A stretch of DNA of 64,000 nucleotides from contig CAYYYH010000001.1 in assembly GCA_964476395.1 (NCBI GenBank), positions 5,222 through 69,221 on the forward strand, given 5' to 3'. This document shows positions 23,930 to 31,502 of the stretch, piece after piece (position 1 is the first letter of the stretch; the number at the start of each line of letters is the position of its first letter). Below the pieces are notes generated by a model. The model had not been told where the DNA came from. It searched no databases and was given only the letters and a program-made list of their open reading frames with translations. The stretch is from an uncultured Candidatus Saccharibacteria bacterium (lineage in GTDB: Bacteria > Patescibacteriota > Saccharimonadia > Saccharimonadales > Saccharimonadaceae). The position numbers and the translations under genes were made by a program.

Positions 23930-24226
23930 TTATGATTCTTCCATACCTTCTTGGGTATACTCTGATACAATCTTTACCACCTGCTGAATAGTCGGGGAAC
24001 AGTTCTTGAAACTAACTTTTTCAAAGAACAAATCCCCAAATTCACGCATCGGTCCGACTATTAATGCATGAATGAACGATTGCGTTGCTCCAATCATGCC
24101 TTCAAAATCAAGAATTACCTCCTCACCATCAACTAACGCCGGCATAATTTGTTTAATCCTAATCCGCCTAGCTGTGTCTTTATTCTCCCCAAATTCCCCC
24201 GCCATTTTCGCCAATTTTATAATCAT
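23930..24226 (-). CDS. STAS-like (DUF4325-like) small protein
   Basis: VILDFEGM...SFIHAL pattern; overlaps stop of upstream HATPase gene. Confidence 0.75.
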   Translation of the reverse strand: MIIKLAKMAGEFGENKDTARRIRIKQIMPALVDGEEVILDFEGMIGATQSFIHALIVGPMREFGDLFFEKVSFKNCSPTIQQVVKIVSEYTQEGMEES

Positions 24227-25188
24227 ACGAACTTCACCTCCTTATATTTAGCTTTTTTGCGCTCGCGTATAGCTTTGCTATATGATACTTTAATTCTTTC
24301 CAAAATTTCGCTAAATGTTTCCGTATCAGTTAAAGTCAAATCAAGACCTATCAAAGTACCTCCAAAATTTGGCAAATCGTCATAAACTGCACATTTATCG
24401 GCAAATGGGTTCTCGTTTAACCGCGGACTATATTTTACTCTTTTATCAAATTTGTGCAATTTATAGGCTGCACTCCCGCTATATACTAGGAAGTAATTCC
24501 GGGTTGTTTTCACAATAGATTTAACGATATATAATCCCGCCCCGGCATTATCACCAGTACCACCCCTATATGCCGTTCCAGAAACGCCCGGCATCAATGC
24601 AAGTCGTATCGCATCAAGATCATCGACCGGATTATGGTATTTCTCAAGACTAGCCCTAAGACCGACTCCGGTATCACATATACCCACACTCAACTTATTT
24701 TTCTCGGCCGTATATTGCACAGCGACGAAGGCGCCATTCTGCGCGTTTGAATGTTCAATCACATTCCGAATCAATTCCCCCAAGACGTATTTAACAGTTT
24801 CAGACTTTTCCGGAGAAAGATGCAAAATCGGATGTAAATCCGCGATAAACCGCGACTGCTCCTGCTCGGTCTTAAGCTGTGTTATAGGGATGAAACGCCC
24901 CGTCTCCTCATGCTGATTATACTCGATCGGGCAATTACTCGATGAATAATCATATAAACCCATCCTGTCTAAATACATCGCCGCCCGAGGCACCCCAATA
25001 TCAATCGTTGTATTTTCCTTCCCGACCTCAGACGCCAAAGCCGCCGCAAAAGCCAAGCAAACGGGATGAACATATATCCAACTTTTCTCCGCGCAAATTT
25101 CAAGTTTACTACTATCAGACAGGTCATTAGTCCTCAAAAAATAGTTAATACTCTTTAGCTGGTCCACATTCGAAAACGATATTTTCAT
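24223..25188 (-). CDS. GHKL/HATPase_c-domain protein (anti-sigma/kinase-like)
   Basis: ELIRNVIEHS (N box), CDTGVG (G1), NAGAGLY (G2). Confidence 0.8.
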   Translation of the reverse strand: MKISFSNVDQLKSINYFLRTNDLSDSSKLEICAEKSWIYVHPVCLAFAAALASEVGKENTTIDIGVPRAAMYLDRMGLYDYSSSNCPIEYNQHEETGRFIPITQLKTEQEQSRFIADLHPILHLSPEKSETVKYVLGELIRNVIEHSNAQNGAFVAVQYTAEKNKLSVGICDTGVGLRASLEKYHNPVDDLDAIRLALMPGVSGTAYRGGTGDNAGAGLYIVKSIVKTTRNYFLVYSGSAAYKLHKFDKRVKYSPRLNENPFADKCAVYDDLPNFGGTLIGLDLTLTDTETFSEILERIKVSYSKAIRERKKAKYKEVKFV

Positions 25189-25194
25189 ATCTTC

Positions 25195-25223
25195 ATTATA
25201 ACGGTTAGACGTATTTTTGTCAA
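25195..25223 (-). promoter_or_regulatory. Consensus promoter of the HATPase-STAS pair
   Basis: TTGACA(25218-25223)-17-TATAAT(25195-25200), ATG 6 nt downstream. Confidence 0.85.
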
Positions 25224-25313
25224 TATACGCTTAACCGTAGATTAACAGGGGTAAAAAAGTTATAATTCTGCGGTTAGACGTATTTTCCCAAAAACACGCT
25301 TAACAGTAGATTA
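25202..25313. repeat. Two 43-bp imperfect direct repeats, each partly palindromic
   Basis: 25202-25244 and 25271-25313, 36/43 identical; CGGTTA-GA-CGTAT...ATACG-CT-TAACCG dyad. Confidence 0.85.
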
Positions 25314-25352
25314 TTGTCTCACTCTCCCCACGACGTTTTCACTAACCACCTC

Positions 25353-25381
25353 TTGACTTTTTCAACCACTCGCGCTATAAT
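25353..25381 (+). promoter_or_regulatory. Promoter with no downstream ORF (drives candidate sRNA)
   Basis: TTGACT-17-TATAAT. Confidence 0.8.
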
Positions 25382-25387
25382 AAAACC

Positions 25388-25439
25388 ATATTCGGGGATA
25401 CCCGTCCACCCTAATCGAAAGATTAGGGGACATTTTTTT
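25388..25439 (+). ncRNA. Candidate ~52-nt small RNA convergent on the PemK-like gene
   Basis: Promoter, hairpin CGGG-GATA-CCCG, terminator GTCC(A)CCCTAATC-GAAA-GATTAGGGGAC plus T7 reaching the PemK stop codon. Confidence 0.6.
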
Positions 25440-25833
25440 AGCAAAACAAATTGTGAAAACCAATCCTTATTGTTTGTAAATCAGAATCTGGCAATGCCCC
25501 CATTTTCTTATAAAGCCTAGAAACACTAAAAACTCGCGCCTGTGCAAGAACGGCATATTCCTGTCGATTTTTAAATACAAATGGAGCATACCAGCTGCCA
25601 TTATGCTCCTGTGAAGTTAGCGGGACGCCCATAAAACCATACTTGCTTAACTTTTTCAAAACAACGACAGGCCGAGCGAATGTTTCACTTTTCCCGTTAA
25701 TCTCTACACCGACGCTCTCTCCAACAGCGCACCAATATACATCTCCATCCTTAATATCACGCAGGACACCTTTTCCATGTAAATCCGACTTCACCACAAT
25801 CCACTCCTCAAAATGTTTTTCTTTTTCTTCCAT
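25438..25833 (-). CDS. PemK/MazF-like endoribonuclease toxin (no adjacent protein antitoxin)
   Basis: GDVYWCAVGESVGVEINGK...RPVVVLKK...GVPLTSQ...LAQARVFSVSRL; SD AAGGAG. Confidence 0.8.
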   Translation of the reverse strand: MEEKEKHFEEWIVVKSDLHGKGVLRDIKDGDVYWCAVGESVGVEINGKSETFARPVVVLKKLSKYGFMGVPLTSQEHNGSWYAPFVFKNRQEYAVLAQARVFSVSRLYKKMGALPDSDLQTIRIGFHNLFC

Positions 25834-25845
25834 AGAACTCCTTAA

Positions 25846-25923
25846 TTTATTTCCAACTACCCTACCACACCCACTCCGCTAAATCAACCCAACCAACACT
25901 CTTATGCCAATCCACCCCTTAAA
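25846..25923. repeat. 78-bp direct repeat, copy 1
   Basis: 72/78 identical to 28106-28183; C/A-rich on plus strand, non-palindromic. Confidence 0.92.
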
Positions 25924-25934
25924 TTTATGTCCGC

Positions 25935-27176
25935 TCAAACACCCAATTCCTCGCACTTTTCGAATTCCAAAGTCTCTTTCATTAAATTGTCACAATTATT
26001 TGAAATCTCTTTTCTAATCTCTTCGCCAAACTCGCTATACGAATTTGTTTCAGAAATCAAGCGATAAAATTTTGCAACATTGGGCTGTACTCTTTTTATG
26101 ACTTCAGGCATTTCACGGTATATTCCATCAGTCTTAAACAATTGCCAAAGCACTTTACTAAGTTCGTCAAGTTCTGCGTCTCCCACAACAGTAGGACTGA
26201 CTACTACGTAATACGCAAGCGTCCCAAACCAACACTCATACTTATCAAAACGTTTCTCCGAATCGTCAGTCACGGCAGCTTTTACATACTCGGAAATAGC
26301 GTTTAGCCACATTTTCTTACGCCACGTAGCGTGTTCGTTGGCATAGCCAAACAATAAAGGCTGTATAATTGAACATCCGACACCGACTTGCTCTATATTA
26401 TAAAAATCAATCATATGATTTGAAAAATTTAGAAACCCCTTCTGGGCATACGCCATGTCCTCACCAGATATTTGGCTAAGAAAAGATAGGTACAAAACGG
26501 CGTACATAGCAAAATCATCTCTTGCTAAAAATTCATAAGTTTTAGAATCATCCCACAGCATAGACCACTTCTTCTGCTGCATACTAACAGACCCACACCG
26601 CAGGTAAGCTAAGCGCAGCTGCTTCCTCGTGCCGATATCTATCAAATCCATAATCTTACTAGAATCATCTTCAGATAACGGTGTACCCGTATTTATCTTT
26701 ACGTTACCCATGTTGTCGAGTACTGGAGTACTAGACGGATTATTGTCATTGAACGACGGCACATCATAAAGCCAATTAAAAGCATTGTTTAGTGCTTCTG
26801 TTGAATGATATCCCAACCTTACAGAAAATACTATCATCCCAGATAATAAAACTAACAAAATAAACCTCCTAATTGGACCCCTTCGTTTTATGCTATTCAT
26901 AATCAAAAAAGCTAAACTTAAAAAAGCAATCATCAAAATCTGTTCCAACAATTCGGGTAAACCGACTACGGCGTCTGAAATAACCAAATAATCTACATCA
27001 ATAATCGCATTATCCTGCAACATAAAGATAGTGACCGGTATAAAAACGGCAATCACCACGCCTACATAAGCAAAGAATCCAGCAGAAATACCACTATGAT
27101 TGAAAAGATCATCTAGGTGTCCCCTCAGAAAATTTTTCACATCAATAAAACGTTCTTTTATATCATTTTTGGTCAT
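25935..27176 (-). CDS. Hypothetical membrane protein (413 aa)
   Basis: Three to four N-terminal hydrophobic segments followed by a soluble helical-looking domain; no family recognised. Confidence 0.7.
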   Translation of the reverse strand: MTKNDIKERFIDVKNFLRGHLDDLFNHSGISAGFFAYVGVVIAVFIPVTIFMLQDNAIIDVDYLVISDAVVGLPELLEQILMIAFLSLAFLIMNSIKRRGPIRRFILLVLLSGMIVFSVRLGYHSTEALNNAFNWLYDVPSFNDNNPSSTPVLDNMGNVKINTGTPLSEDDSSKIMDLIDIGTRKQLRLAYLRCGSVSMQQKKWSMLWDDSKTYEFLARDDFAMYAVLYLSFLSQISGEDMAYAQKGFLNFSNHMIDFYNIEQVGVGCSIIQPLLFGYANEHATWRKKMWLNAISEYVKAAVTDDSEKRFDKYECWFGTLAYYVVVSPTVVGDAELDELSKVLWQLFKTDGIYREMPEVIKRVQPNVAKFYRLISETNSYSEFGEEIRKEISNNCDNLMKETLEFEKCEELGV

Positions 27177-27231: not shown

Positions 27232-27807
27232 TCATTCTTCCTCGCCTATCACCAAATCATTTTCATAAATCAAATTGATAATTATCGCAGAAAAATCAAT
27301 CATTTGTTCAGCATCCTTCTTTGTTAAAAACTTAATCTCGTGGGTAGCATCGTTGCCTTTCTTTCGAATTATGTCTACCCACTTCTTTGAACCCCTCGGA
27401 ATATAATTCTCCTTATCAAGATAGTCGACGTAGTCCATGAAACTCAAACCTTCTTTTGCACCCAAATTTACACAGATGTTCATCAAAAGCTTCCTACAAC
27501 ACATTCCCGCAGCAGTAAAAGCATTCACGCTATAGGCCGCTCTGGCCTCTTCATATATTTTTTTCACTTCTAGCGGAATTGGTAAATCAAAATACTTTCC
27601 ATACTTCGGACCAGGAAATTGTTTAACCCCGGACAGCATATTAAAAAAAGTTGGCGACAAACAATTATGACAGATATAAATCTTAAGCTTTGGGTATTTA
27701 CTATTAAAATAGCCAACCTCTGAACATATTTCCCTACCACAATACGAACAGACATAAGTTTTACTATCTATTTTTTCCGAACCATACCAACCAGTAGAAT
27801 TACTCAT
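27232..27807 (-). CDS. DUF4145 (HEPN-like) protein with N-terminal Zn finger
   Basis: Start likely ATG 27807 after TGG-TATAAT; CSYC/CHNC, YEEARAAYSVNAFTAAGMCCRKLL, RKKGNDATH. Confidence 0.8.
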   Translation of the reverse strand: MSNSTGWYGSEKIDSKTYVCSYCGREICSEVGYFNSKYPKLKIYICHNCLSPTFFNMLSGVKQFPGPKYGKYFDLPIPLEVKKIYEEARAAYSVNAFTAAGMCCRKLLMNICVNLGAKEGLSFMDYVDYLDKENYIPRGSKKWVDIIRKKGNDATHEIKFLTKKDAEQMIDFSAIIINLIYENDLVIGEEE

Positions 27808-27824
27808 ATCACATATTATACCAC

Positions 27825-27880
27825 AAAAAAGAGGGCGATGTCCCGCATATATCCAATGCAGGTCCTGCCCCCCATCGCCC
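27825..27880 (-). ncRNA. Candidate ~55-nt structured small RNA downstream of CdiA-CT-like gene
   Basis: Promoter TTGACT(27906-27911)-16-TATAAT(27884-27889); outer stem GGGCGATG/CATCGCCC, inner hairpin CCTGCAT/ATGCGGG, then T6. Confidence 0.6.
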
Positions 27881-27894
27881 CTCATTATAGCGCA

Positions 27895-28110
27895 TCATTT
27901 CATAAAGTCAAGTATTTTTCCTCTCTTAGAAACAACCATCAAACGCTGTAAACTTTTTGATCGTTCGAATTCCCGCCGTAATTCATTTGTGCACTTTGAT
28001 TGATGACGCTTTGTCCTGCGTAAATCCACAATAACATAACGAGACTGTTTCACCGCTTTCTGAATCGTATTCGCCATGAGATATTTACTTTCTCCAATCG
28101 GTGATTTTAT
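27895..28110 (-). pseudogene. 5'-truncated CdiA C-terminal-like (tRNase-type) nuclease
   Basis: EIKSP...NTIQKAVKQSRYVIVDLRRT...LMVVSKRGKILDF matches C-terminal half of solo CdiA_C-like nucleases as I recall them; sequence upstream of EIK is the 78-bp repeat. Confidence 0.6.
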
Positions 28111-28183
28111 TTCCAACCACCCTACCACACCCACTCCGCTAAATCAACCCTGCCATCACTATTATGCCAATCCACCCCTAAAA
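28106..28183. repeat. 78-bp direct repeat, copy 2
   Basis: 72/78 identical to 25846-25923. Confidence 0.92.
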
Positions 28184-28198
28184 TCGAAACCCGAACCC

Positions 28199-28227
28199 TT
28201 GACTTTTTCAACCTCCCAACCTATAAT
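28199..28227 (+). promoter_or_regulatory. Promoter of abiF-like module
   Basis: TTGACT-17-TATAAT; shares CTTGACTTTTTCAACC-N7-CTATAATAAAA with 25352-25385. Confidence 0.85.
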
Positions 28228-28233
28228 AAAATC

Positions 28234-28287
28234 AACATCTCCTCCAGGCTTGGTTACGGCCAGCACACTTGGAGGAGTTCTGTTTGT
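28234..28287 (+). ncRNA. abiF-type structured leader RNA (candidate RNA antitoxin)
   Basis: Stem CTCCTCCAGG(28239-28248)/CTTGGAGGAG(28268-28277) enclosing TGGTT-AC-GGCCA hairpin, between promoter and Abi gene. Confidence 0.65.
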
Positions 28288-29975: not shown

Positions 29976-31502
29976 TTACCTCCTAATTCGAAATCTTAAA
30001 AATTTCTTTAATATGCGCCTTACGATATCATTAAAACTAGAATTGGCATGATACATCACAAAGAAAACTGCAAAGAAAATAATAGTCGATATGATCGCAT
30101 TCTTCAGCAGCTCCAAAATAGAATTATTAAACACTACGATGTTCGATAAACAGACGGCTATTAAGCTCATAACTACAGCAGACAACAAATACAGAAAATG
30201 TTGCTTAAAATATAAATTTGCTGATTCATTAAAAATCTTCCTATAAACGATAAATGGATACGAGCCGAAACATAATACTAGTGTACTAATAATCGTCCCC
30301 ATTATAATACCAGGAACCCCAAATACCTTCGCGCAAATAAGTGAAGCAATGATATTTACTACAGATTCGATAATCGGAATGAATCTATCCTCATAGAAAA
30401 TACCAGCTGCATTTTTAAAAGCTATCGTCGTCAGCTTCATCATTCTTAAATACAAATAAACTGATAACGTTCCGACCATCAACTCAGACATCAAGTATTC
30501 GTCACCAATCCATATTTTCACTAAAGGTTGCACGCACGCATAAAAAGTACAAGAAACATATGCGGCCAAAATAAAATTAATAGCCTGAATGCCCCTATAT
30601 GCGTGTAAATTGCTACGTTCATTTTTCATCACCAGCAGATTCCCAATACTCGCCGTAATACCAGAAAAAACGCTACTAATTAAATTGAAAATTGAAGATA
30701 CCACCAAAAAGTAATTATTATAAAAGCCGACCTGGGTCACACCAAACATCATCGATATCATGATATTATCTGTACCGTTAACAACAAATCCTCCAATCTG
30801 ATGGTAAAACATTGCGCGAATCTTTTTAGTTAAGCTTTTCTTTATTGAAATAGGAAGCGGCTTAGCCTTCTCAGTGATATAAGGATATTTCTTATTCGCT
30901 ATACCAGCAATAATGATATTTTCTAAACCAGTAAATAATACCTTTACCAAAAGGAATAAATAAAAATTCTTAGTAAGATATAATAGTAAAATTTGGACAA
31001 CATTCATTAAAACTATTTTGCCAATATGGACATATTTTGTAATGCGCTCCTTCTGATCAGCTATAATTATTGACCGCTTATATGAAAGCAAGTAAGAAAG
31101 AACGGCCTCCAAAAGAAAAAGAATATAAGCGATGTAGATGTTTACATCAATATCTAAGCTCCCAATAATTGAATGCAAAAAGGGGATAATAATAACTCCG
31201 ACAGCAGAAACAACGAAAGCAATTATCCTATAACATTTTTTGTAGAAATTCATGAGCGATTTCGTTAATTCGATATTCTTCTTATGAATCGGTTCATATA
31301 GGAAAAAAATAATAGTAGTACCTATTCCCAGTTCCGCAATTGACAAAATCGAAATAATGCTCGTAAGCAAACTATTTAACCCATTATATTCTGCTCCCAG
31401 AATATCAATAAAAATCTTTCGAGCAACAAAATTCACAATCAGATTGACCCCAAAAGCAAAAACAGACCAAAACACATTTTTTAAAGAATTCTCTGTCCTC
31501 AT
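29976..31502 (-). CDS. Wzx-type polysaccharide flippase
   Basis: About 12-14 TMs; ILSIAELGIG, GTDNIMIS, GNLLV, NIIASLI; inside cps locus. Confidence 0.88.
   Translation of the reverse strand: MRTENSLKNVFWSVFAFGVNLIVNFVARKIFIDILGAEYNGLNSLLTSIISILSIAELGIGTTIIFFLYEPIHKKNIELTKSLMNFYKKCYRIIAFVVSAVGVIIIPFLHSIIGSLDIDVNIYIAYILFLLEAVLSYLLSYKRSIIIADQKERITKYVHIGKIVLMNVVQILLLYLTKNFYLFLLVKVLFTGLENIIIAGIANKKYPYITEKAKPLPISIKKSLTKKIRAMFYHQIGGFVVNGTDNIMISMMFGVTQVGFYNNYFLVVSSIFNLISSVFSGITASIGNLLVMKNERSNLHAYRGIQAINFILAAYVSCTFYACVQPLVKIWIGDEYLMSELMVGTLSVYLYLRMMKLTTIAFKNAAGIFYEDRFIPIIESVVNIIASLICAKVFGVPGIIMGTIISTLVLCFGSYPFIVYRKIFNESANLYFKQHFLYLLSAVVMSLIAVCLSNIVVFNNSILELLKNAIISTIIFFAVFFVMYHANSSFNDIVRRILKKFLRFRIRR

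What the first reader, a model, noticed from the sequence alone, without database searches (positions are those of the whole stretch)
25353..25833. Antitoxin-less PemK/MazF gene with a convergent 52-nt RNA ending on its stop codon
Seen: a plus-strand TTGACT-17-TATAAT promoter, a CGGG-GATA-CCCG hairpin, then a GAAA-loop terminator whose U-tract overlaps the PemK stop codon, with no ORF in between. Upstream of the toxin there is only the 78-bp repeat, not a MazE-like gene. Inference: the RNA is the antitoxin, either by binding the protein (ToxI-like) or by 3' antisense action. It may correspond to a catalogued pemK-associated RNA motif, which I cannot verify.
Basis: partly seen in the sequence, partly recalled or inferred. 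Interest (0 to 1): 0.78.

Follow-up and report, generated by a model that had tools for sequence, protein, structure and literature searches.

The report
MazF-type toxin with partner RNA
A MazF/PemK-type RNA-cutting toxin gene in a tiny gut Saccharibacteria genome has no protein antidote gene beside it; it is instead faced, here and in about 80 related loci, by a conserved 52-base two-hairpin RNA gene that is most likely its antidote, a pairing barely described for this toxin family.

Summary
A TTGACT-17-TATAAT promoter (25353-25381, +) precedes a small hairpin (25393-25404). A GAAA-loop terminator follows (25409-28), and its U-run overlaps the TAA stop of a 131-aa PemK/MazF-fold gene (25438-25833, -).

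This is not chance. A covariance model of the RNA finds it at the toxin's 3' end in 82 of 83 homologous loci (50-80% protein identity, gut and rumen Saccharibacteria). Pairing holds in 95% of cells, with 157 compensatory cells. G-U pairs outnumber A-C by 39 to 11, and 47 of 87 terminator loops are GNRA, all on the RNA's strand only.

No protein neighbour is conserved, and the genome has no MazE. Distant homologs (25-35% identity) and Campylobacterota plasmids keep the same layout. On C. jejuni pVir the facing RNA (CJpv3) was seen on a Northern blot.

Rfam's pemK motif (RF02913) does not match.

The RNA is very probably the toxin's partner and probably its antitoxin. An invariant single-stranded leader (AUAUUC here, ACAAAU in distant clades) makes me favour direct recognition by the toxin (type III-like, 0.45) over pure 3' antisense (type I-like, 0.3). 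No experiment here decides between them.

This scan has reported the same module on other DNA.

The parts
25438..25833 (-). PemK/MazF-fold toxin gene, 131 aa, with an N-terminal extension of about 27 residues before the PemK domain
   Evidence: ORF. Pfam PF02452 at E 7.5e-8. AlphaFold2 model with pLDDT 80.6, whose best Foldseek hits are all MazF structures (E about 1e-6, TM 0.6-0.7). R54 and T73 align with the B. subtilis MazF residues in GvRPVLV and AITAQ. It is the only PemK match in the 677-kb genome.
25859..25887 (-). Predicted promoter of the toxin gene: -35 TTGATT (25887-25882), 17 nt, extended -10 TGG-TAGGGT (25867-25859). It lies inside the 79-nt repeat. The SD AAGGAG is at 25843-25838.
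   Evidence: Read from the sequence. The same TTGaAg-17-TGnGaTAGGGT pattern stands upstream of the toxin in L082, L083, L004, L035, L067 and L025. Inferred; no transcript data.
25353..25381 (+). Promoter of the small RNA: TTGACT, 17 nt, TATAAT
   Evidence: 11 of 12 matches. A strict pattern is conserved in 64 of 85 homologous loci, and by eye most others carry a near-consensus box. A copy 84% identical over 37 nt lies at 28198-28234.
25388..25439 (+). Predicted small RNA of about 52 nt. The start is inferred 7 nt after the -10. The end is in the U-run that overlaps the toxin stop codon.
   Evidence: Covariance model R1 scores 68.7 bits, E 1e-13, at 25386-25438, and this is the only copy in the genome. 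The same -10-to-start spacing was mapped by experiment for CJpv3 on C. jejuni pVir.
25388..25392 (+). Single-stranded 5' leader AUAUU; with C25393, the first base of P1, it makes the AUAUUC block conserved at 90% or more across the family
   Evidence: Nearly invariant columns in A2 and A3. Distant toxin clades carry a different invariant leader, ACAAAU.
25393..25404 (+). P1 mini-hairpin CGGG-GAUA-CCCG
   Evidence: 99.4% of cells paired. Three of its 4 pairs show compensatory changes, such as CGAG/CUCG, CGAC/GUCG and UGGC/GCCA.
25409..25428 (+). P2 terminator hairpin: 8 bp with a GAAA (GNRA) tetraloop, then GACA and U7 (25429-25439)
   Evidence: All 8 pairs show compensatory changes. 47 of 87 distinct sequences have a GNRA loop on this strand and none on the other.

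Best explanation
This is a two-part toxin-antitoxin-like module. One part is a MazF/PemK-fold endoribonuclease gene with its own promoter. The other is a convergent, strongly promoted RNA of about 52 nt (leader AUAUUC, 4-bp hairpin P1, GNRA-capped terminator hairpin P2) that takes the place of the missing MazE/PemI protein.

I think the RNA neutralises the toxin mainly by direct, sequence-specific binding. In this model the invariant single-stranded leader, presented next to P1, occupies the RNA-binding groove of the toxin dimer as a poor or non-cleavable substrate. This is type III-like in logic. MazE's tail blocks the same groove, and ToxI RNA blocks ToxN in the same way.

Because the RNA gene abuts or overlaps the toxin's stop codon and the toxin strand has no U-run after the hairpin, toxin transcripts that read on would also be fully complementary to the RNA. 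A second, antisense or transcription-collision layer is therefore likely.

Shown: anatomy, conservation, covariation, strand of selection, absence of a conserved protein partner, MazF fold and catalytic residues. Inferred: expression in this organism, toxicity, neutralisation, and which of the two routes dominates.
For: 1. The pairing is constant. The RNA lies at the toxin's 3' end in 82 of 83 loci with 50-80% protein identity, although the neighbouring genes differ. Its 3' end overlaps the stop codon or CDS in 67 of 81 loci.

2. It is a real structured RNA on the + strand. 95.3% of cells are paired, 157 cells are compensatory, and 0 of 500 shuffles reach that. G-U pairs number 39 against 11 A-C. 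GNRA or UUCG loops occur in 51 of 87 sequences on this strand and none on the other.

3. No protein antitoxin is evident. The commonest neighbouring family occurs in 18 of 82 loci at varying positions. No MazE is found in the 98.9%-complete genome.

4. Primary sequence is conserved where antisense pairing would not need it. The leader and P1 are 90% or more invariant while the proteins differ by about 50%. In distant toxin clades (25-35% identity) the layout is kept, the leader is a different invariant word (ACAAAU), and P1 varies freely.

5. The 5' half has no predicted target in the toxin leader or CDS (mean z +0.16 over 73 loci).

6. One locus (L068) carries two units head to tail with no promoter or U-run between them. 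The inner P2 is therefore kept although it does not terminate.

7. Intact orphan copies, and arrays of copies whose P1 types belong to other toxin clades, imply action in trans.

8. The toxin looks active. It has the MazF fold, and the Arg and Thr that align with B. subtilis MazF R25 and T48 are invariant or nearly invariant.

9. A homologous module on C. jejuni pVir expresses its convergent RNA strongly. The read count at the CJpv3 start site is 16164, against 28 at the toxin's start site, and the RNA is Northern-positive (Dugar 2013, PMC3656092, supplement).
Against: No binding, toxicity or rescue data exist for this family.

The strictly convergent, abutting geometry is conserved even in Campylobacterota. 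That is what cis-antisense control predicts, and a purely protein-binding RNA would not need it.

Known type III RNAs are tandem repeats upstream of the toxin and in the same orientation, which this is not.

The leader motif is not depleted in the toxin's own CDS. That test is uninformative rather than supportive.

The pVir RNA antitoxin CjrA is described in the literature as type I antisense (PMC10470494). If its toxin is pVir0047, the only experimental precedent favours the rival.

Metatranscriptome contigs cover the toxin CDS but give no strand or ends.
Confidence: 0.45

Rival explanations
1. Pure cis-antisense control (type I-like, as in B. subtilis txpA/RatA or bsrG/SR4). The toxin mRNA reads through the hairpin into the RNA gene. 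The abundant small RNA pairs with this 3' extension, RNase III cuts the duplex, and the toxin mRNA is degraded. Convergent transcription from the strong promoter also collides with toxin transcription. The RNA never touches the protein.
For: The convergent layout, with the RNA's 3' end on or inside the toxin's stop codon, holds in 67 of 81 loci, and all lie within 21 nt. The same layout is kept in distant clades and on Campylobacterota plasmids.

No U-run follows the hairpin on the toxin strand, so read-through is expected.

The genome encodes RNase III.

The A/U-rich single-stranded leader could serve as a toehold for pairing.

CjrA on C. jejuni pVir is cited as an antisense type I antitoxin (PMC10470494, PMC7826846).
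Against: Antisense pairing is automatic for any sequence, so it does not explain near-invariance of the leader and P1 across about 50% protein divergence, nor a clade-specific change of the leader word.

GNRA and UUCG loops are closed, stable loops and poor sites for loop-loop initiation.

An orphan copy such as L083:2807-2862, whose P2 differs from the P2 behind that locus's own toxin gene, cannot pair fully with that toxin mRNA yet stays intact.

Known type I toxins are small membrane peptides, not stable soluble RNases. For a stable RNase, control of the mRNA alone gives no protection against protein already made.
Confidence: 0.3
2. The RNA is a conserved partner but not an antitoxin. It could be the preferred substrate, a cofactor or guide, or a sensor for the MazF-like RNase, for example a decoy consumed on phage infection. 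Alternatively, P2 is chiefly a shared terminator and the short transcript has a regulatory role unrelated to neutralisation.
For: Co-inheritance shows a functional link but not its sign. Its promoter is shared with the neighbouring AbiF-associated RNA.
Against: A MazF-fold RNase with intact catalytic residues and no other inhibitor would need some restraint. Orphan RNA genes survive after toxin loss (G119; a toxin stump in G013). That pattern fits an antidote better than a substrate. A mere terminator needs no promoter, leader or P1.
Confidence: 0.15
3. A protein still does the neutralising. It could be an unlinked or unrecognised antitoxin, or the family-specific N-terminal extension of about 27 residues acting within the molecule. 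On this view the RNA is accessory.
For: The extension (residues 1-27, with invariant F8, W11 and K15) is absent from solved MazF proteins and is modelled with low confidence. On a Nitratiruptor plasmid, translating (my own reading) the 62-aa ORF annotated downstream of the module gives a motif that looks like a ribbon-helix-helix protein.
Against: No conserved small ORF flanks the toxin in 82 loci. No MazE family match is found in the genome. An extension that is always present cannot by itself give conditional control. None of this explains why the RNA gene is kept.
Confidence: 0.05

Closest known systems
PemK/MazF-family gene CJJ81176_pVir0047 with the convergent sRNA CJpv3 on Campylobacter jejuni 81-176 plasmid pVir (Dugar et al. 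2013, PMC3656092, supplementary tables)
   Same: The toxin is homologous: 34% identity over residues 1-106, E 1e-10, annotated in RefSeq as a PemK/MazF family toxin. An sRNA gene with a TATAAT promoter faces it, and the RNA ends 5 nt after the toxin's stop codon. The start lies 7 nt after the -10. It has hairpins followed by a GC-rich terminator. Expression is shown by dRNA-seq and Northern blot.
   Different: CJpv3 is 77 nt with three hairpins, and the covariance model built here does not detect it. It sits on a conjugative plasmid of a proteobacterium-like lineage, not in a Saccharibacteria chromosome. The 2013 paper lists it only as an sRNA. Shen et al. 2016 (Mol Microbiol 101:909) describe a pVir type I pair, cjrA/cjpT. 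I could not read that paper, so I could not establish whether cjpT is pVir0047.
Type III toxin-antitoxin systems (ToxIN, AbiQ/antiQ, CptIN, TenpIN)
   Same: A protein endoribonuclease is held in check by a small structured RNA encoded next to it, with no protein antitoxin. From my own knowledge, ToxN and AbiQ have a fold distantly related to MazF/Kid. Specificity lies in the RNA sequence. One relative here (L068) has a two-unit tandem array.
   Different: Type III RNAs are arrays of direct repeats upstream of the toxin on the same strand, cut into units by the toxin. Here a single unit with its own promoter and terminator lies downstream on the opposite strand. The toxin belongs to Pfam PemK_toxin, not to the ToxN/AbiQ families. 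Binding has not been tested.
Type I systems with convergent genes that overlap at their 3' ends (B. subtilis txpA/RatA, bsrG/SR4)
   Same: The geometry is tail-to-tail, and the RNA's 3' end overlaps the toxin gene's 3' end. The RNA has a strong constitutive-looking promoter. RNase III is available in this genome.
   Different: Those toxins are hydrophobic peptides of 30-60 aa, whereas this one is a 131-aa RNase. Those RNAs are 180-220 nt and poorly conserved in sequence. This one is 52 nt with an invariant leader and stable tetraloops.
Canonical type II MazEF/PemIK
   Same: Same toxin fold and the same catalytic Arg/Thr positions.
   Different: No upstream, co-transcribed MazE/PemI gene. The toxin has its own promoter and an extra N-terminal segment.
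Rfam pemK RNA motif (RF02913; Weinberg et al. 2017)
   Same: It is a structured RNA named for its association with pemK genes.
   Different: Nothing in the genome reaches the family's 34.8-bit cut-off, and none of the four sub-threshold matches (E 0.9-6) lies at this locus. No match in the window or in 12 related loci. Rfam types it as cis-regulatory.

Membership tests
PemK/MazF toxin family (Pfam PF02452) | Match to the family profile above the curated cut-off | tested here: met
   33 bits against a 23.1 cut-off, E 7.5e-8, residues 28-127; repeated on the genome.
PemK/MazF toxin family (Pfam PF02452) | MazF/Kid SH3-like barrel fold | tested here: met
   AlphaFold2 model with pLDDT 80.6. The top 50 Foldseek PDB hits are all MazF-type toxins, E 1e-6 to 3e-5.
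PemK/MazF toxin family (Pfam PF02452) | Catalytic Arg and Thr/Ser equivalents | tested here: met
   R54-P55 and T73-S74 align with B. subtilis MazF GvRPVLV and AITAQ. R54, P55 and S74 are invariant and T73 nearly invariant in 30 relatives.
PemK/MazF toxin family (Pfam PF02452) | Endoribonuclease activity and toxicity | not testable with these tools
   Needs expression and an RNase assay.
Type II MazEF/PemIK operon | Adjacent, co-transcribed protein antitoxin (MazE/PemI, AbrB or RHH type) | tested here: not met
   No such ORF next to the gene. No conserved flanking ORF in 82 loci. No PF04014 match in the genome.
Type III TA (ToxIN-like) | Small non-coding RNA encoded next to the toxin and co-inherited with it | tested here: met
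   82 of 83 loci; covariation.
Type III TA (ToxIN-like) | RNA is a tandem repeat array upstream of the toxin on the same strand, separated from it by a terminator | tested here: not met
   A single unit, downstream and convergent. Arrays occur only in a few relatives, and most units there have their own promoters.
Type III TA (ToxIN-like) | RNA binds and inhibits the toxin protein | not testable with these tools
   The complex predictor takes no RNA chains. Needs EMSA or co-purification.
Type I TA (3'-overlapping class) | Antisense RNA gene convergent with, and overlapping, the toxin gene's 3' end | tested here: met
   The U-run overlaps the stop codon here. There is overlap in 67 of 81 loci, median 2 nt, up to 53 nt.
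Type I TA (3'-overlapping class) | Toxin is a small hydrophobic membrane peptide | tested here: not met
   A 131-aa soluble MazF fold.
Type I TA (3'-overlapping class) | Toxin mRNA and antitoxin RNA form a duplex in vivo | not testable with these tools
   Only contigs of metatranscriptomes were available, with no strand or ends.
Rfam RF02913 pemK motif | Covariance-model match at or above the gathering score | tested here: not met
   The best genome-wide match is 15.5 bits against 34.8, and it lies elsewhere.
CJpv3/pVir0047-type module | Homologous toxin with a convergent sRNA abutting its stop codon | tested here: met
   The published coordinates, 31119 to 31043, lie against a CDS end at 31038.
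CJpv3/pVir0047-type module | Homology of the RNAs themselves | tested here: inconclusive
   Model R1 gives no hit on L105. The architecture is similar by eye only.

The most novel reading that the evidence does not exclude
MazF-fold toxins in Patescibacteria and on Campylobacterota plasmids form a distinct class of toxin-antitoxin system. In it, a single promoter-to-terminator RNA of about 50 nt inhibits the protein directly. Its invariant 5' single-stranded word (AUAUUC, or ACAAAU in other clades) acts as a pseudo-substrate that plugs the active-site groove, so the leader word encodes which toxin each RNA neutralises. On this reading, the arrays of extra RNA genes with non-cognate P1 types, and the orphan copies, would be immunity genes against toxins of incoming elements.
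Probability: 0.35. Interest if true: 0.8.

Novelty: new variant of a known kind. Interest (0 to 1): 0.62.

Why it matters
MazF/PemK is the textbook type II toxin, defined by its protein antitoxin. A large, conserved lineage that has swapped the protein for a 52-nt RNA would blur the type I/II/III classification. It would also mean that "orphan" MazF genes in genome annotations are not orphans.

The system is minimal and easy to test. One small protein and one small RNA could show how an RNA restrains an RNase.

It also adds a defence or addiction module to Saccharibacteria, whose reduced genomes (677 kb here) largely lack CRISPR. The leader-word idea predicts the cleavage specificity of each toxin clade from sequence alone, and that prediction can be checked directly.

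Tried and rejected
1. **Rfam.** There is no family at gathering score in the window or in 12 related loci. With E up to 10, the only match in 25100-26000 is a chance SAM-SAH hit inside the CDS. RF02913 does not match the locus.

2. **Trans base-pairing.** I tested pairing of the RNA's 5' 28 nt with the toxin leader and CDS using RNAduplex against shuffles in 73 loci. Mean z was +0.16 and no target position recurred. I rejected this route. The strong value in L083/L084 falls in the G-rich promoter region, which is probably not transcribed.

3. **Depletion of the leader word.** AUAUUC, its sub-words and ACA are not depleted in the toxin's own CDS. ATATTC occurs 9 times against 10.6 expected. The test is uninformative.

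4. **Expression from public runs.** Only Logan contigs were available. Two metatranscriptome runs of one study hold contigs over the toxin CDS (25529-25924 and 25545-25848). One 168-nt contig from a relative spans the RNA gene with unlike flanks. There is no strand, no ends, and DNA carry-over cannot be excluded, so this counts neither for nor against transcription.

5. **Literature.** No paper in the held library describes a MazF/PemK toxin with an RNA antitoxin in Patescibacteria. Shen et al. 2016 is not held, so the identity of CjpT stays open.

6. **NCBIfam and PADLOC.** Neither has a model for this toxin.

7. **First RNAduplex script.** It timed out and was rerun with fewer shuffles.

8. 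**Promoter regex.** The strict pattern misses loci with weaker boxes (64 of 85). The covariance model was used instead for the counts.

Full report
**What is in the window**

The window comes from a 677-kb, 98.9%-complete genome. Its relatives are gut and rumen Saccharibacteria, many labelled Candidatus Nanosyncoccus.

On the minus strand, 25438-25833 encodes a 131-aa protein that matches Pfam PemK_toxin above its cut-off. An AlphaFold2 model (pLDDT 80.6) has only MazF-type toxins among its best PDB matches. The residues that align with B. subtilis MazF in GvRPVLV and AITAQ are conserved: R54 is invariant and T73 nearly invariant in the family. About 27 N-terminal residues are extra.

On the plus strand, TTGACT-17-TATAAT (25353-25381) is an 11 of 12 match. 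After it come:
- a short A/U leader;
- hairpin P1, CGGG-GAUA-CCCG (25393-25404);
- a 4-nt linker;
- hairpin P2 with a GAAA loop (25409-25428);
- GACA and seven U, the last two of which overlap the toxin's TAA stop.

**Is it more than chance?**

The fold energy alone is modest (z -2.9). Comparison is decisive. A scan of one genome per species found 286 relatives of the protein, and I examined the best 80 plus four metagenome loci. In nearly all of them the stop codon is followed by an A-run, a GC-rich hairpin, the block GCGGGTATTCCCGAATAT, then ATTATA and GTCAA. Read on the other strand, that is a promoter, a leader, P1, P2 and a U-run.

A covariance model built from 34 of these finds the RNA next to the toxin's 3' end in 82 of 83 loci with a flank. 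The exception, L042, has a copy 1.5 kb away.

On the resulting alignment of 87 distinct sequences:
- 95.3% of cells pair, against 82.3% in shuffles;
- 11 of 12 pairs and 157 cells show changes on both sides;
- no shuffle in 500 reaches these values, and sliding the partners collapses pairing to 37-58%.

Selection acts on the RNA's strand. There are 39 G-U/U-G cells against 11 A-C/C-A. The P2 loop is a GNRA tetraloop in 47 of 87 sequences and UUCG in 4, and none is GNRA when read on the toxin strand. The hairpin is therefore not merely the toxin gene's terminator.

**Is anything else constant in the module?**

No. Neighbouring genes differ from locus to locus. Clustering all ORFs of 35 aa or more within about 800 nt of the toxin in 82 loci gives no family present in more than 18 loci, and that family sits at varying positions and strands. 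The recurrent 36-47-aa "ORFs" are translations of the RNA gene itself.

The genome has one PemK match, no MazE-family match, and an RNase III gene. The toxin has its own predicted promoter. In the window it is TTGATT-17-TGG-TAGGGT, inside the 79-nt repeat. In another subclade a TATAAT lies 7 nt before the ATG, which suggests leaderless mRNAs.

**How far does it reach?**

In an even sample of 151 genomes of the class, the RNA model hits 5 genomes, 4 of them in the window's genus including this one. The protein profile hits 13 genomes.

I fetched the distant homologs (25-35% identity, other families of the class). Nine of them (L091-L098, L104) again show a convergent near-consensus promoter, a single-stranded leader, a mini-hairpin that often has a UUCG loop, and a terminator abutting or overlapping the stop codon. 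The other two (L099, L100) look alike by eye, with leader words close to it. The model from the close clade does not detect these RNAs. In eight that I aligned, the leader word ACAAAU is invariant while the mini-hairpin's sequence differs in each.

The plasmid collection holds homologs (28-37% identity over most of the protein; shorter pieces up to 48%) only in Campylobacter, Helicobacter and Nitratiruptor. The three I read have the same tail-to-tail promoter-hairpins-terminator arrangement.

Following a lead from earlier notes of this scan, I checked Dugar et al. 2013. Its supplementary tables list sRNA CJpv3 on pVir, minus strand 31119 to 31043, 77 nt, Northern-positive. The read count at its start site is 16164, against 28 at the start site of pVir0047. 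pVir0047 (30634-31038) is the PemK homolog. The mapped start lies 7 nt after the TATAAT. That is the same spacing as between the -10 and the conserved leader here, which is my basis for placing the start at about 25388.

**Variants that inform the mechanism**

- Some loci carry two or three RNA genes in a row behind one toxin gene, such as L056, L013 and L081. Most of these units have their own promoters.
- On a protein tree, P1 types follow toxin clades. The copy next to the toxin is of the type of that clade, and the extra copies are of types that belong to other clades.
- L068 has two units joined head to tail with no promoter or U-run between them.
- Intact copies occur away from a toxin gene: L083:2807-2862 behind a KAP NTPase gene, and G119 with no toxin match. 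In L014 and G013 only a toxin stump remains.
- In L082 the toxin ORF has lost its stop and reads 17 codons into the RNA gene.

**Mechanism**

The RNA is almost certainly a functional partner of the toxin. I put this at about 0.95, on co-inheritance over deep divergence. That it is the antitoxin is the natural reading for a MazF-fold RNase with intact catalytic residues and no protein inhibitor. I put this at about 0.75.

Two routes are possible.

*Antisense.* The toxin strand has no U-run after P2, so read-through transcripts would be perfectly complementary to the RNA. RNase III is present. The abutting convergent geometry is conserved everywhere.

*Direct binding.* Antisense pairing imposes no constraint on sequence. 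Yet the leader and P1 are nearly invariant across about 50% protein divergence. The leader changes to a different invariant word in distant toxin clades while the hairpins covary freely. The loops are closed GNRA/UUCG tetraloops rather than kissing loops. The 5' half has no predicted target in the toxin leader or CDS. An internal, non-terminating P2 is kept in L068. From established knowledge, MazF binds a short single-stranded word in the groove of its dimer, MazE's tail blocks that groove, and ToxN is inhibited by an RNA that retains its cleavage product in the active site.

I therefore favour direct, leader-specific recognition, with the antisense overlap as a likely second layer (0.45). 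Pure antisense comes next (0.30). No data here decide between them.

A caveat: the pVir RNA antitoxin CjrA is cited as type I antisense. I could not read the primary paper to learn whether its toxin is pVir0047.

**Comparison with known systems and novelty**

The toxin is a member of the PemK/MazF family. The module is not a type II operon, because it has no protein antitoxin. It is not a ToxIN-type type III locus, because it has no upstream repeat array and a different toxin family. It is not a classical type I locus, because the toxin is not a membrane peptide. It is not Rfam's pemK motif.

It works like a type III or type I system, with a type II toxin. The closest described instance is the CJpv3/pVir0047 pair, published only as an expressed sRNA and possibly as cjrA/cjpT.

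I rate it a new variant of a known kind. The same module has been reported several times by this scan on other DNA, so this window adds one more well-preserved example. The analyses I have not seen in those notes are the leader-word contrast between clades and the tetraloop and strand evidence.

Noticed in passing
window 25846-25924 and 28106-28184: A 79-nt direct repeat (92% identical, 2260 nt apart). Copy 1 holds the predicted promoter and 5' UTR of the PemK gene. Copy 2 overlaps the 5' end of a 79-aa minus-strand ORF (27895-28134). DNA contigs of the source run break at both ends of copy 1, and depth there rises about fivefold. This fits a recombination-prone cassette junction.
   Followed up: partly
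window 28198-28234: A second copy (84% over 37 nt) of the small RNA's promoter, TTGACTTTTTCAACC...TATAAT, stands 13 nt after repeat copy 2. The RNA partners of two different toxin genes thus share one promoter.
   Followed up: partly
window 25202-25244 and 25271-25313: Two 43-nt direct repeats (84% identical). The first overlaps a perfect 12 of 12 minus-strand promoter (25223-25195) that drives a HATPase_c gene (24223-25188) and a DUF4325/STAS-like gene (23930-24226). The HATPase gives a weak PADLOC DrmA match.
   Followed up: no
window 27232-27885 (-): A DUF4145 protein with a PADLOC PD-T7-4 match (E 1e-7).
   Followed up: no
L068:3389-3483 (-): Two RNA units joined head to tail, with no promoter or U-run between them. 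This is the only ToxI-like tandem form I saw, and it would need processing to give single units.
   Followed up: partly
L056:624-896 (-), L013:3389-3566 (-), L081:3381-3515 (-): Arrays of two or three RNA genes behind one toxin gene. In L056 each copy has its own promoter. The P1 types differ, and the extra copies match types that accompany other toxin clades.
   Followed up: partly
L083:2807-2862 (-); G119:C13:34717-34772; L014:2799-2851 (-): Intact RNA genes without an intact toxin gene beside them. One lies behind a KAP NTPase gene. One is in a genome with no toxin match. One is next to the last codons (..GFKRLYC*) of a lost toxin gene.
   Followed up: partly
L082:3001-3447: In the 80%-identical relative the toxin ORF has lost its stop codon and reads 17 codons through the RNA gene (148 aa). 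This shows how closely the two genes are packed.
   Followed up: no
L106:1270-1458 (+): On the Nitratiruptor plasmid a 62-aa ORF downstream of the toxin-RNA pair, translated here, gives ...TIRVEDDLWDKFKKIA..., which looks like a ribbon-helix-helix protein. It could be an unrelated regulator or a protein antitoxin in that lineage.
   Followed up: no
L028, L031, L033, L058, L021 and others, just upstream of the toxin ATG: In one subclade a TATAAT box lies only 7 nt before the toxin's ATG, which suggests leaderless toxin mRNAs.
   Followed up: no
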